Positions 1 to 3,000 of a stretch of DNA of 64,000 bases are shown here, piece after piece. Made by a program: the position numbers. Positions within the stretch are counted from its first letter, which is position 1. The number at the start of each line of letters is the position of its first letter. Source of the stretch: Escherichia coli (GTDB taxonomy: Bacteria > Pseudomonadota > Gammaproteobacteria > Enterobacterales > Enterobacteriaceae); assembly GCF_016903815.1 (NCBI RefSeq), contig NZ_CP069973.1. The stretch is one strand, 5' to 3'.

Positions 1-3000
1 GGTTGCCGAAGGGAGTATTGCCATATGGCGAAGCGGCAAATTTCGATCTTGTGGGTCAGCGCGCACTACAAATCGGCGAATGGCAGGGGGAACCTGTTTG
101 GTTAGTACAACAGCAGCGGCGTCACGATATGGGGTCGGTACGTCAGGTCATTGATCTCGATGTTGGGCTGTTTCAACTGGCCGGACGAGGCGTACAACTG
201 GCGGAGTTTTACCGATCGCATAAATACTGTGGTTACTGCGGGCATGAAATGTATCCGAGCAAAACCGAATGGGCGATGCTGTGCAGCCATTGCCGTGAGC
301 GTTACTATCCGCAAATCGCCCCCTGCATTATTGTTGCCATCCGTCGCGATGATTCGATCCTCCTCGCCCAGCATACCCGCCATCGTAACGGTGTCCATAC
401 GGTACTTGCCGGATTCGTCGAAGTGGGCGAAACCCTCGAGCAGGCAGTCGCGCGGGAAGTGATGGAAGAGAGCGGAATTAAAGTTAAAAACTTGCGTTAT
501 GTGACTTCCCAGCCGTGGCCGTTTCCTCAGTCTTTAATGACCGCGTTTATGGCGGAATACGACAGCGGCGACATCGTGATCGACCCGAAAGAATTGCTCG
601 AGGCGAACTGGTATCGCTATGACGATTTGCCGTTACTCCCGCCGCCCGGCACCGTAGCGCGCCGTCTGATAGAAGATACGGTGGCGATGTGTCGGGCAGA
701 GTATGAGTGATGATACACTGACCGCCTGACGCACTAAGGAACAGCCAAAATGACCGAACTTAAAAACGATCGTTATCTGCGGGCGCTGCTGCGCCAGCCC
801 GTTGATGTCACTCCAGTATGGATGATGCGCCAGGCGGGTCGCTATCTACCGGAATATAAAGCCACGCGCGCCCAGGCGGGCGATTTTATGTCGCTGTGCA
901 AAAACGCCGAGCTGGCGTGCGAAGTGACTTTGCAACCGCTGCGTCGCTACCCGCTGGATGCGGCGATCCTCTTTTCCGATATCCTCACCGTCCCGGACGC
1001 GATGGGGTTAGGGCTCTATTTTGAAGCCGGAGAAGGTCCGCGTTTTACCTCGCCAGTCACCTGCAAAGCTGACGTCGATAAACTGCCAATTCCGGACCCG
1101 GAAGATGAACTGGGGTACGTGATGAACGCGGTGCGTACCATTCGTCGCGAACTGAAAGGCGAAGTGCCGCTGATTGGTTTTTCCGGCAGCCCGTGGACGC
1201 TGGCGACCTACATGGTGGAAGGCGGCAGCAGCAAAGCGTTCACCGTGATCAAAAAAATGATGTATGCCGATCCGCAGGCGCTGCACGCTCTACTCGATAA
1301 ACTGGCGAAAAGCGTCACTTTGTATCTGAATGCGCAGATTAAAGCCGGTGCTCAGGCTGTGATGATTTTCGACACCTGGGGCGGCGTGCTTACCGGGCGC
1401 GATTATCAACAGTTCTCGCTTTATTACATGCATAAAATTGTTGATGGTTTACTGCGTGAAAACGACGGTCGCCGCGTACCGGTCACGCTGTTTACCAAAG
1501 GCGGCGGACAGTGGCTGGAAGCCATGGCAGAAACCGGTTGCGATGCGCTGGGCCTCGACTGGACAACGGACATCGCCGATGCGCGCCGTCGCGTGGGCAA
1601 TAAAGTCGCGTTGCAGGGTAATATGGATCCGTCGATGCTGTACGCGCCGCCAGCCCGCATTGAAGAAGAAGTAGCGACTATACTTGCAGGTTTCGGTCAC
1701 GGCGAAGGTCATGTCTTTAACCTTGGTCACGGCATTCATCAGGATGTGCCGCCAGAACATGCTGGCGTGTTTGTGGAGGCAGTGCATCGGTTATCTGAAC
1801 AGTATCACCGCTAAGAGCCTGGTCCATCAGGCTATTTTATTTGCCATTTTGAGGCCGGGCAGTGCTCAAAATCCTCACGTACTACGTGTACGCTCCGGTT
1901 TTTCCGCGCTGTCCGGCCTCAAACTGCCTTCAACAATTACGCCTGGTGGACCAGGCTCTAAGGAGCGATTATGGATCTCGCGTCATTACGCGCTCAACAA
2001 ATTGAACTGGCTTCTTCTGTGATCCGTGAGGATCGACTCGATAAAGATCCGCCGGATCTGATCGCCGGAGCCGATGTCGGGTTTGAGCAGGGCGGAGAAG
2101 TGACGCGAGCGGCGATGGTGCTGCTGAAATACCCCTCGCTTGAGCTGGTGGAGTATAAAGTGGCCCGCATCGCCACCACCATGCCTTACATTCCAGGTTT
2201 TCTTTCCTTCCGCGAATATCCTGCGCTGCTGGCAGCGTGGGAGATGCTGTCGCAAAAGCCGGATTTAGTGTTTGTCGATGGTCATGGGATCTCGCATCCT
2301 CGCCGTCTTGGTGTCGCCAGCCACTTCGGTTTGCTGGTGGATGTGCCGACCATTGGCGTGGCGAAAAAACGGCTCTGCGGTAAATTCGAACCGCTCTCCA
2401 GCGAACCGGGCGCGCTGGCCCCACTGATGGATAAAGGCGAGCAGCTGGCCTGGGTCTGGCGCAGCAAAGCGCGCTGTAACCCGTTGTTTATCGCTACCGG
2501 TCATCGGGTCAGCGTGGACAGCGCGCTGGCGTGGGTACAACGCTGCATGAAAGGCTATCGTCTGCCGGAGCCAACGCGCTGGGCGGACGCGGTGGCCTCG
2601 GAACGTCCGGCGTTCGTGCGCTATACAGCAAATCAGCCCTAATTCAGGTAAACTGCGGATAATTTCCGTATTTGAGAACTCAACATGTTACAAAACCCAA
2701 TTCATCTGCGTCTGGAGCGCCTGGAAAGCTGGCAGCATGTCACTTTCATGGCTTGCTTATGCGAACGCATGTACCCCAATTACGCCATGTTCTGCCAGCA
2801 AACCGGTTTTGGTGATGGGCAAATTTACCGTCGTATTCTCGATCTCATCTGGGAAACGCTGACCGTTAAAGACGCAAAAGTAAATTTCGACAGCCAACTG
2901 GAGAAATTTGAAGAAGCGATTCCTTCAGCCGACGATTTCGATCTGTACGGCGTTTATCCGGCAATCGATGCCTGCGTGGCGTTAAGTGAACTGGTCCATT

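What the first reader, a model, noticed from the sequence alone, without database searches (positions are those of the whole stretch)
1815..1958. Nested imperfect palindromes filling the hemE-nfi intergenic region
An outer inverted repeat (GAGCCTGGTCCATCAGGC ... GCCTGGTGGACCAGGCTC, one mismatch in 18) encloses an inner long hairpin (GAGGCCGGGCAG ... CTGTCCGGCCTC around a CACGTACTACGTG core). It is not followed by a U-tract, so it is not a canonical terminator. It could be a REP-like or BoxC-like repeat, an RNA processing site, or a structured leader for nfi.
Basis: seen in the sequence. Interest (0 to 1): 0.3.

Follow-up and report, generated by a model that had tools for sequence, protein, structure and literature searches.

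The report
Small mobile hairpin element insertion
The nested palindrome is a 144-bp non-coding mobile element, from a repeat family found throughout the enterobacteria, that inserted into the TAA stop codon of hemE in about 6% of E. coli strains; this is an ordinary kind of event, unusual only in how cleanly it leaves both neighbouring genes intact.

Summary
The sequence is not a locus-specific leader. It is a 147-bp insertion (144-bp element plus a duplicated TAA) relative to the K-12-type hemE-nfi junction, and it is present in 308 of 5,426 complete E. coli genomes. It belongs to a dispersed family (median 5 places per E. coli genome) found across the Enterobacterales. Of 66 copies with both terminal inverted repeats (consensus GAGCCTATCCCATTAGGC), 47 have identical 3-nt flanks, always TTA or TAA. 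These are MITE hallmarks, and they resemble IS5-family/PIF-Harbinger elements, but I found no parent transposase. Here the target was hemE's TAA stop codon. The duplication recreates both the stop codon and the nfi TAAGGAG ribosome-binding site, and both proteins are unchanged. The family is not REP/BIME, ERIC or YPAL (tested by sequence). It is probably the old "RSA" family, which I recall from memory and could not verify by sequence. Likely local effects are inferred: a terminator-like hairpin directly after hemE, and a very stable RNA hairpin. The family's interior is unexpectedly conserved and shows covarying base pairs, and copies without terminal repeats persist at conserved host and phage loci. 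This leaves open that the inner hairpin has a function.

The parts
1812..1814 (+). Left copy of the 3-bp target-site duplication (TAA); it also serves as the hemE stop codon
   Evidence: Filled versus empty site alignment. hemE CDS end. 47 of 66 family copies are flanked by identical TTA or TAA.
1815..1958 (+). 144-bp non-coding MITE-type element in the family '+' orientation, co-directional with hemE and nfi
   Evidence: 147-bp insertion relative to the K-12-type site. Family profile scores 146 bits on + and 31 bits on -. It is the only copy in the 64-kb window.
1815..1832 (+). Left terminal inverted repeat GAGCCTGGTCCATCAGGC
   Evidence: Family consensus is GAGCCTATCCCATTAGGC.
1941..1958 (+). 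Right terminal inverted repeat GCCTGGTGGACCAGGCTC
1816..1843 (+). Local hairpin within the left arm (AGCCUGG-UCCA-UCAGGCU) followed by AUUUUAUUUG; intrinsic-terminator-like, directly after the hemE stop
   Evidence: Terminator scan hit. Folds at -9.7 kcal/mol. GGCTATTTT is among the most conserved segments of the family. Function not tested.
1845..1926 (+). Inner long hairpin (arms 1851-1862 and 1909-1920)
   Evidence: -45.1 kcal/mol, z = -8.5. The helices show covariation across the family.
1875..1914 (+). Family core TCACGTAC-N4-TGTACGC-N11-CGCGCTGTCC, used as the search pattern
1959..1961 (+). Right copy of the target-site duplication (TAA); it rebuilds the nfi ribosome-binding site TAAGGAG (1959-1965)
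   Evidence: The empty site reads CGCTAAGGAG and the filled right junction reads CTCTAAGGAG.
1962..1973 (+). nfi Shine-Dalgarno GGAG (1962-1965) and start codon (1971-1973). In the global minimum-energy fold, AGCG (1964-1967) pairs with CGCU (1809-1812), which overlaps the last hemE codon and the first base of the stop codon
   Evidence: Structure. A local alternative fold leaves the Shine-Dalgarno largely free of the element.

Best explanation
It is one copy of a miniature, non-coding, inverted-repeat transposable element (MITE-type). The family is dispersed at low copy number through E. coli and the whole order Enterobacterales. SHOWN: relative to the common E. coli hemE-nfi junction (CGC TAA GGAGYGATT ATG, 9-nt spacer), this lineage carries 147 extra bases, which are a 144-bp element with 18-bp terminal inverted repeats plus a second copy of TAA. 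Family members elsewhere carry the same inverted repeats and are flanked by duplicated TTA or TAA. INFERRED: the element was moved by a DDE cut-and-paste transposase supplied in trans that makes a 3-bp staggered cut at TWA. The GAG...CTC termini plus a 3-bp TNA duplication match what I recall for the IS1031/IS427 groups of the IS5 family and their eukaryotic PIF/Harbinger-Tourist relatives. Because the target was hemE's own TAA stop codon, the duplication left one TAA to terminate hemE and one TAA to rebuild the nfi TAAGGAG ribosome-binding site, so the insertion was tolerated inside a tightly packed gene pair. Its local consequences are by-products and are inferred. The hemE-nfi transcript gains a terminator-like hairpin immediately after hemE. 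It also gains a roughly 60-bp near-perfect RNA duplex that could be an RNase III or decay-barrier site. This duplex places the nfi Shine-Dalgarno at the base of a stem whose other strand overlaps the hemE stop codon.
For: Insertion polymorphism: 308 of 5,426 complete genomes carry the filled site, and the rest are 147 bp shorter. The filled/empty alignment gives exact boundaries and a single TAA in the empty site. HemE and Nfi have the same protein accessions in a filled and an empty genome. Dispersed family: 23,878 places in E. coli, median 5 per genome, for example qseE-qseG and ycbX-rlmL. It also occurs on plasmids of Pantoea, Klebsiella, Citrobacter, Salmonella, Enterobacter and Serratia, and in at least 120 chromosomal loci from Citrobacter to Photorhabdus, Edwardsiella and Providencia. 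Terminal repeats and duplication: 66 copies have both terminal repeats, and 47 of these have identical 3-nt flanks, of which 25 are TTA and 22 are TAA. Element sizes cluster at 144-145 bp and about 206 bp. Both orientations occur next to gene ends, and 27 of 66 copies have a gene end within 30 nt. No promoter was found inside the element, and no Rfam family reaches its threshold. Terminator-like left end. Hairpin stability.
Against: No autonomous element or transposase with matching ends was found in about 1 Mb of fetched loci, in plasmids, or in viral contigs. No near-identical donor copy exists in E. coli: the best copy elsewhere is about 83% identical, and only one of the 308 filled genomes has a second high-scoring place. 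The nearest sampled relatives are only 86-87% identical. The interior is more conserved than the terminal repeats, and copies without terminal repeats are conserved at orthologous loci, which a purely selfish MITE does not predict. The IS5-subgroup attribution rests on my memory of ISfinder tables and was not checked. All expression effects are untested.
Confidence: 0.8

Rival explanations
1. The roughly 115-nt inner hairpin is a host- or phage-selected functional module, for example a transcript-end, RNA-stability or processing element, or a protein-binding hairpin. On this view the hemE-nfi copy was retained because it adaptively uncouples or tunes nfi relative to hemE.
For: Orthologous copies lacking terminal repeats at gmhA-yafJ in four species are 87-98% identical, against 60-68% at third codon positions of the flanking genes. 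In 9 cross-species orthologous pairs the element is about as conserved as the mostly coding flanks, or more so. Covariation is strong: 81% of cells paired against 27-42% when the partner is slid, and 256 double-change cells against 105 in shuffles. A copy lacking terminal repeats sits inside the late operon of P2-like prophages, and another sits in the Providencia 16S-23S spacer. The left end is terminator-like.
Against: Only 6% of E. coli carry the hemE-nfi copy. Copies occur in both orientations next to genes, so no single RNA strand is favoured. Outside two invariant G.U pairs, the G.U versus A.C asymmetry is weak. My sample required an exact 25-nt core, which inflates apparent conservation. 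Palindromes can also acquire paired changes through hairpin-templated repair without selection. The malF-malG orthologues in Pantoea show no excess conservation: 0.88 against 0.89-0.91 for the flanks.
Confidence: 0.15
2. It is a member of the classical E. coli palindromic repeats named by the first reader (REP/BIME or BoxC) or of ERIC/YPAL.
For: It is palindromic, intergenic and repeated.
Against: The element needs at least 5 substitutions in 15 to match the REP motifs, while the same motifs match 11 times elsewhere in the window. There is no match to the ERIC core at up to 8 substitutions. The family profile gives no hit, even at E = 100 with filters off, to the published ERIC (RU-1), YPAL (RU-2) and BIME-type RU-3 sequences. 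Its length, terminal repeats and 3-bp duplication also differ. BoxC could not be compared by sequence.
Confidence: 0.02
3. The hemE-nfi difference is a deletion: the sequence is ancestral in Escherichia and was lost from most strains.
For: The filled allele occurs on at least two flank backgrounds (225 genomes at >=99% and 80 at 95-99% identity) and in serotypes I recall as belonging to different phylogroups, such as O121:H19 and O7:H15.
Against: The empty site is exactly the filled site minus the element plus one TAA, which is the signature of an unoccupied target and not of a random deletion. 94% of genomes are empty. The same terminal-repeat and TWA-flank architecture is seen at dozens of unrelated loci. 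The spread over different backgrounds is readily explained by homologous recombination.
Confidence: 0.05
4. The element moves by a single-strand, hairpin-dependent mechanism (IS200/IS605-type 'PATE' or a REP/RAYT-like system) and not by a DDE transposase.
For: Each end is itself a small hairpin, the whole element is a hairpin, and the interior is more conserved than the termini.
Against: Those systems do not duplicate the target. Here the flanks co-vary (TTA with TTA, TAA with TAA, only 2 mixed TTA/TAA pairs among 66), and the empty site holds one copy.
Confidence: 0.04

Closest known systems
RSA sequences (also called 'BEE95'; Bachellier & Hofnung 1996; Bachellier, Clement & Hofnung 1999 survey of short palindromic repeats in enterobacteria)
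   Same: From memory, RSA is a palindromic enterobacterial intergenic repeat of about 152 bp with about 6 copies in E. coli K-12. The present family is palindromic, 144 bp (150 with both duplications), occurs across the enterobacteria, and has 5-6 places in K-12-like genomes. The only trace in the searchable library is the title of the 1996 letter in a reference list.
   Different: No RSA sequence was available, so identity is unverified. I do not know whether the TWA duplication, the short and long forms, the order-wide spread, or the copies lacking terminal repeats were described.
ERIC/IRU (127-bp enterobacterial MITE)
   Same: A small, palindromic, intergenic, strain-polymorphic element that is co-transcribed with its neighbours and folds into a long RNA hairpin.
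   Different: The sequence is unrelated. From memory, ERIC duplicates TA. This family duplicates TWA and has different termini.
YPAL / RU-2 of Yersinia (De Gregorio et al. 2006; Delihas 2007)
   Same: By recollection of the 2006 abstract, these are miniature insertion sequences with target duplications that lie close downstream of stop codons and stabilise the upstream mRNA as hairpins. Here 27 of 66 copies lie within 30 nt of a gene end, and 7 use the gene's own TAA as target.
   Different: The family profile gives no hit to the published 168-nt RU-2 sequence.
Correia/NEMIS elements of Neisseria
   Same: A MITE that is transcribed into mRNAs, whose paired terminal repeats are cut by RNase III, changing expression of neighbouring genes (review). 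This is the best-documented precedent for what a 60-bp RNA duplex between hemE and nfi could do.
   Different: It comes from a different family and host and, from memory, duplicates TA. No cleavage data exist for the present element.
Chunjie MITE of Geobacter uraniireducens (Chen et al. 2008)
   Same: A recently active MITE inserted inside an operon without destroying it, with a very stable RNA fold and many partial copies lacking terminal repeats.
   Different: It has 9-bp duplications and 21-bp terminal repeats and its sequence is unrelated.
IS5 family (IS1031/IS427 groups) and eukaryotic PIF/Harbinger with Tourist MITEs
   Same: A 3-bp TNA/TWA target duplication and termini beginning GAG. 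This is my recollection of ISfinder/Siguier et al. tables and of the PIF target CWCTTAGWG. The hemE-nfi and ycbX-rlmL targets read CTAAG and CTTAG.
   Different: No transposase or full-length IS with these ends was found, so the link rests on the end and duplication signature only.

Membership tests
MITE (non-autonomous inverted-repeat transposable element) | Small size and no coding capacity | tested here: met
   144 bp. There is no annotated CDS in filled genomes. No frame has an ATG-initiated ORF of note. ORF 1684-2022 is a mechanical out-of-frame read-through.
MITE (non-autonomous inverted-repeat transposable element) | Terminal inverted repeats | tested here: met
   18-bp terminal repeats with 1 mismatch. 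They are conserved, with a few compensated changes, across 47 aligned copies.
MITE (non-autonomous inverted-repeat transposable element) | Target-site duplication | tested here: met
   TAA lies on both sides here and once in the empty site. 47 of 66 copies have identical TTA or TAA flanks.
MITE (non-autonomous inverted-repeat transposable element) | Multiple dispersed copies and presence/absence polymorphism at orthologous sites | tested here: met
   Median 5 places per E. coli genome. The hemE-nfi site is filled in 308 and empty in about 5,100 genomes.
MITE (non-autonomous inverted-repeat transposable element) | A related autonomous element with the same ends that supplies the transposase | tested here: inconclusive
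   None was found in the fetched loci, plasmids or viral contigs. The search was not exhaustive.
IS5-family (IS1031/IS427-like) derivative | 3-bp TNA duplication and GAG termini | tested here: met
   That these features define those subgroups is from memory and was not checked in a source.
IS5-family (IS1031/IS427-like) derivative | Cognate DDE transposase recognising these ends | not testable with these tools
   No candidate protein was identified, and a mobilisation assay would be needed.
RSA / BEE95 enterobacterial repeat | About 150-bp palindromic intergenic repeat with few copies in E. coli, shared among enterobacteria (as recalled) | tested here: met
   144-150 bp, palindromic, 5-6 places in K-12-like strains, found across the order.
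RSA / BEE95 enterobacterial repeat | Sequence identity to the published RSA consensus | not testable with these tools
   The papers are not held. Only a reference-list title was found.
REP/BIME | 35-40-bp GC-rich imperfect palindromes with the REP consensus, in hundreds of copies | tested here: not met
   At least 5 of 15 substitutions are needed to match the REP motifs, although those motifs match 11 times elsewhere in the window. The profile gives no hit to RU-3.
ERIC/IRU | Conserved central inverted repeat (the ERIC1R/ERIC2 region) in a 127-bp element | tested here: not met
   No match within 8 substitutions. The profile gives no hit to the published consensus.
YPAL/RU-2 | Similarity to the 167-168-bp Yersinia element | tested here: not met
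   nhmmer finds no hit at E <= 100 with filters off.
BoxC | Similarity to the 56-bp BoxC consensus | not tested
The length and architecture differ from what I recall.
Intrinsic (rho-independent) terminator | GC-rich hairpin immediately followed by a U-tract | tested here: inconclusive
   The whole 144-nt hairpin has no U-tract. The left-arm local hairpin (-9.7 kcal/mol) followed by AUUUUAUUUG passes the consensus scan. Activity is unknown.
Any Rfam RNA family | Score at or above the family's gathering threshold | tested here: not met
   The best hit is sX9 at 31.7 bits against a threshold of 44. For the long form, AaHKsRNA22 scores 31.3 bits against 39.8.

The most novel reading that the evidence does not exclude
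The conserved inner hairpin of about 115 nt (AGGCTATTTT...TTACGCCT, with an invariant core helix carrying two fixed G.U pairs) may be a functional module. In this reading it has spread on a MITE chassis through the Enterobacterales, and possibly further, given sub-threshold sequence-level matches to 'sRNAs' annotated in Xanthomonas and Aggregatibacter. It would have been repeatedly domesticated without its terminal repeats: in the gmhA 3' region of Citrobacter-like species, inside the late operon of P2-like phages, and in the Providencia rRNA spacer. There it would be kept by purifying selection as a transcript-end, processing or protein-binding element. The hemE-nfi copy would then be a recent natural experiment in adding this module to an operon.
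Probability: 0.25. Interest if true: 0.6.

Novelty: new member of a known kind. Interest (0 to 1): 0.3.

Why it matters
For this window, the result explains the finding. The hemE-nfi palindrome is a strain-variable mobile-element insertion and not a conserved regulatory feature of nfi, so it should be annotated as a repeat or mobile element. It is a tidy example of a transposon that targets TWA landing in a TAA stop codon inside a 9-nt gene junction and, through its own target duplication, restoring both the stop codon and the downstream ribosome-binding site. The 308 filled and about 5,100 empty genomes give natural pairs for testing what a 144-nt hairpin does to read-through, mRNA processing and translational coupling in an operon. 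At the family level, the two MITE reviews I could search (2011 and 2024, by term search) and Delihas 2007 do not mention it. A clean empty site with a 3-bp TWA duplication is direct evidence of how the family moves. The conserved interior raises a testable question about whether the hairpin has a function.

Tried and rejected
1. Rfam scans of the window copy, of long-form and diverged copies, and of the Providencia locus: nothing reaches threshold.

2. Search for a parent IS, all negative:
- Pairing of terminal-repeat matches 0.3-4 kb apart in all loci.
- BLAST of the left end against plasmids, followed by inspection of two hits that matched only the terminal repeat. Both were copies next to IS66, IS6 or Tn3 genes, with no IS5-family transposase nearby.
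- ORFs next to solo ends in L038 and L081, which showed no transposase-like ORF (judged from the sequences; no family search was run).
- Terminal-repeat patterns in viral contigs gave 0 hits. The first pattern was mis-specified: AGGSCTAT only matches the GGG variant. It was redone correctly.

3. Literature: ten searches, including sequence strings, found no open-access description. De Gregorio 2006 is not held.

4. The K-12 MG1655 record carries no repeat annotation at the qseE-qseG or ycbX-rlmL copies.

5. I initially read the duplication as 5 bp (CTWAG) from the first three copies. I rejected this after eight, and then 66, copies showed that only the central TWA is duplicated.

6. I initially misread the Providencia copies as lying between 23S and 5S. 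Rfam showed they lie upstream of the 23S 5' end, in the 16S-23S spacer.

7. A 10-nt complementarity to the 23S 5' end was dismissed as expected by chance.

8. I could not list every copy in one E. coli genome, because the similarity tool reports one place per record.
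Full report
**Observation.**
- The 18-nt outer arms (1815-1832 and 1941-1958) are complementary with one mismatch.
- The inner arms (1851-1862 and 1909-1920) surround CACGTACTACGTG (1876-1888). The repeat finder reports both inverted repeats.
- Each outer arm is itself a small palindrome, so the arms are also direct repeats of each other (D1). The 16-mer motif occurs 4 times against 0.24 expected.
- As RNA, 1805-1975 folds at -89.4 kcal/mol on the + strand and -90.5 on the - strand, about ten standard deviations below shuffles.
- hemE ends with TAA at 1812-1814 and nfi starts at 1971, so the structure fills the spacer.

**It is an insertion.**
- The window is E. coli, 100% identical to strain 7/2.
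- Of 5,426 complete genomes, 5,420 match the hemE-nfi region, but only 308 contain the palindrome. In the others the match is 147 bp shorter.
- In a K-12-like genome nfi starts 9 nt after the hemE stop. In strain 7/2 it starts 156 nt after.
- The alignment shows the empty site CACCGC-TAA-GGAGTGATTATG and the filled site CACCGC-TAA-[144 bp]-TAA-GGAGCGATTATG.
The HemE and Nfi protein accessions are identical in the filled and the empty genome.

**It belongs to a dispersed family.**
- The 151-nt query finds 23,878 places in E. coli, with a median of 5 per genome.
- Full-length copies lie between qseE and qseG and between ycbX and rlmL. They are about 79-83% identical to the window copy.
- The family profile finds no second copy in the 64-kb window. 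It scores 146 bits on the + strand against 31 on the - strand, so the element has a defined orientation.
- Copies occur on large plasmids or chromids of Pantoea, Klebsiella, Citrobacter, Salmonella, Enterobacter and Serratia, often between genes of one operon such as malF-malG.
All named genera are Enterobacterales: Citrobacter, Klebsiella, Enterobacter, Kluyvera, Kosakonia, Cedecea, Mangrovibacter, Pantoea, Erwinia, Pectobacterium, Dickeya, Serratia, Rahnella, Yersinia, Edwardsiella, Photorhabdus and Providencia.

**Anatomy and mobility signature.**
- Among non-redundant loci, 66 copies have both terminal repeats (consensus GAGCCTATCCCATTAGGC, up to 5 mismatches allowed).
- Of these, 47 have identical 3-nt flanks: 25 TTA and 22 TAA. 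Only two pairs mix TTA with TAA.
- Lengths cluster at 144-145 bp and about 206 bp. The long form carries a 62-nt multi-hairpin insert.
- My first reading of a 5-bp CTWAG duplication did not survive more copies.
- Terminal repeats, a 3-bp TWA duplication, small size, lack of coding capacity, dispersal and an occupied/empty polymorphism are together the definition of a MITE.
- GAG termini with a 3-bp TNA duplication match what I recall for the IS1031/IS427 groups of the IS5 family and for PIF/Harbinger-Tourist elements. That attribution is from memory.
- I found no transposase or full-length IS with these ends.
- The flanking triplets are the same on both sides of each copy (TTA with TTA, TAA with TAA). 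This argues against an IS200/IS605-type single-strand mechanism, which does not duplicate the target.

**Why the insertion is tolerated here.**
- The only TWA in the 9-nt junction that can be hit without damaging a gene is hemE's stop codon.
- The duplication leaves the left TAA as the stop codon. The right TAA completes TAAGGAG, the nfi ribosome-binding site.
- Across the family, 7 of 66 copies use a neighbour's TAA stop as the target. Another 8 have a neighbouring ORF that ends inside the terminal repeat, several of them at a TAG 16 nt in. In total, 27 of 66 copies have a gene end within 30 nt, on either side and in either orientation (the ORF calling was crude).

**Likely local effects (inferred, untested).**
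- The left arm alone forms a 6-7-bp hairpin (-9.7 kcal/mol) followed by AUUUUAUUUG. This passes the terminator scan and is the first structure to emerge after hemE. GGCTATTTT is among the best-conserved parts of the family. The mirror site on the - strand has a poorer T-tract.
- In the global fold, the Shine-Dalgarno flank AGCG (1964-1967) pairs with CGCU (1809-1812) at the hemE stop. A terminating ribosome would therefore open the stem that holds the nfi start region.
- In the alternative fold with local hairpins, the Shine-Dalgarno is largely free of the element.
- A near-perfect duplex of about 60 bp is a plausible RNase III substrate, as shown for Correia elements.
- No promoter-like site lies inside the element.

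**Population picture.**
- The filled allele occurs on two flank backgrounds: 225 genomes at >=99% identity and 80 at 95-99%. It appears in strains such as PCN033, O7:H15, O166:H15 and O121:H19. This spread fits transfer by homologous recombination.
- No genome that lacks the insertion has a copy more than 90% identical to it. Only one filled genome has a second high-scoring place.
- The nearest sampled relatives are only 86-87% identical: Erwinia mallotivora, Cedecea, Erwinia psidii and Kluyvera. The donor copy is therefore unknown.
- The window copy is the best-folding of 47 short copies, at -83 kcal/mol against a median of -63. Its differences from the consensus are largely paired (TGGTCC/GGACCA for TATCCC/GGGATA, and GAGGCC/GGCCTC for GGACCT/GTGTCC).

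**Comparison with known families.**
- Motifs for REP and the ERIC core are absent.
- With the published sequences from Delihas 2007, the family profile gives no hit to ERIC (RU-1), YPAL (RU-2) or the BIME-type RU-3, even at E = 100 with filters off.
- Term searches of the 2011 and 2024 MITE reviews gave no hit for RSA (searched in the 2011 review only) or YPAL. Among enterobacterial chromosomal MITEs, the passages returned name only ERIC.
- I recall a roughly 152-bp palindromic enterobacterial repeat called RSA, with six copies in K-12. [quoted passage not shown] Size, symmetry, host range and copy number fit, but I could not compare sequences.
- I therefore file the finding as a new (strain-polymorphic) member of a known kind, and probably of a family named in the 1990s.

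**What does not fit a purely selfish MITE.**
- The interior is more conserved than the terminal repeats. Note that 25 core positions were fixed by my search pattern.
- On 48 sequences that include diverged copies, the hairpin has 81% of cells paired, against 27-42% when partners are slid. It has 256 double-change cells against 105 in shuffles. Two G.U pairs in the core helix are invariant.
- Copies lacking the outer 14 nt of each terminal repeat sit at conserved loci:
  - gmhA-yafJ in two Citrobacter species and two MAGs. There the element is 87-98% identical, against 60-68% at flanking third codon positions.
  - Between the small terminase and head-adaptor genes of P2-like prophages.
  - In the 16S-23S spacer of Providencia stuartii.
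- Nine cross-species orthologous pairs show the element to be about as conserved as the mostly coding flanks, or more so, with exceptions such as malF-malG.
- The core's right half aligns at sequence level to Xanthomonas sX9. The long-form insert aligns to Aggregatibacter sRNA22. Both are below Rfam thresholds.
- Ascertainment bias, concerted evolution among copies and hairpin-templated repair could explain much of this. Both orientations occur next to genes. I therefore treat a functional core as the minority, more novel reading.

**Verdict.** The finding is an ordinary mobile-element insertion with a neat junction geometry, so interest is low to moderate. The family-level oddities are recorded for follow-up.

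Noticed in passing
L100 ~590-720, L132, L035 ~5440-5570, L115 (gmhA-yafJ spacer); L141 2123-2327 for E. coli K-12: A copy of the inner hairpin lacking terminal repeats lies between gmhA and yafJ in Citrobacter braakii, C. amalonaticus and two MAGs. It is 87-98% identical between species, against 60-68% at third codon positions of the flanking genes. E. coli K-12 has REP/BIME sequence at the same spacer instead.
   Followed up: partly
L152 ~4060-4200 (and about 20 other IMG/VR loci, L142-L169): P2-like prophage contigs carry a copy lacking terminal repeats between the terminase small-subunit gene and the head-tail adaptor gene. It lies inside the late operon and antisense to it. Phages may be a vehicle for the family, or may use the hairpin.
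   Followed up: partly
L135 6510-6640; L133, L134: Providencia stuartii has a strongly diverged copy that still forms a hairpin. It lies in the 16S-23S spacer, between StyR-44 and the 23S 5' end, in three rrn operons, and is antisense to the rRNA precursor.
   Followed up: partly
window 1877-1928; L018 1252-1332: There are repeated sub-threshold Rfam matches with clear sequence-level similarity. The core's right half matches Xanthomonas sX9 (25-32 bits, threshold 44). The 62-nt long-form insert matches Aggregatibacter AaHKsRNA22 (31 bits, threshold 39.8). Those 'sRNAs' may be fragments of related elements outside the Enterobacterales.
   Followed up: partly
L018 1201-1413, L026, L082, L098, L124 and others: A long form of about 206 bp carries a 62-nt insert of three small hairpins. 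The stems differ between genera while pairing is kept, and one hairpin has a GNRA-like loop. It is unclear whether this is the ancestral form or a nested insertion.
   Followed up: no
window 1815-1958 compared with alignment A3: The window copy is the most perfectly paired of 47 short copies (-83 against a median of -63 kcal/mol). Its differences from the consensus come largely in complementary pairs, as if the palindrome had been 'repaired' by hairpin-templated conversion.
   Followed up: partly
L096, L107, L109, L119 (Pantoea): A GC-rich diverged subfamily (GCCTGGCTTRCTTG...GCCGCCGACGG) occurs in several copies, including a tandem partial duplication in L119. It lacks the canonical terminal repeats.
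   Followed up: no
L101 1123-1357: In Erwinia sp. S63 a diverged copy lies directly upstream of a TPP riboswitch (78.6 bits), on the opposite strand.
   Followed up: no
L081 8235-8528 and 9125-9514: ORF translations next to the Erwinia mallotivora copy contain the ERIC-encoded peptide motif (…YTRHTSS…PPSCNSNY…). ERIC elements and this family therefore sit within about 1 kb of each other there.
   Followed up: no
hits H71, H79, H131, H149 (plasmid collection): Several records of 4.9-5.4 Mb in the plasmid collection are evidently whole chromosomes (E. coli, Aeromonas caviae, Klebsiella pneumoniae). This inflates the 'plasmid' counts for this element.
   Followed up: no
window, whole 64 kb: REP-like motifs (GCCGGATAAGGCGTT or GCCTGATGCGACGCT, up to 2 substitutions) occur 11 times elsewhere in the window. 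Ordinary BIMEs are therefore present nearby and are distinct from this element.
   Followed up: no
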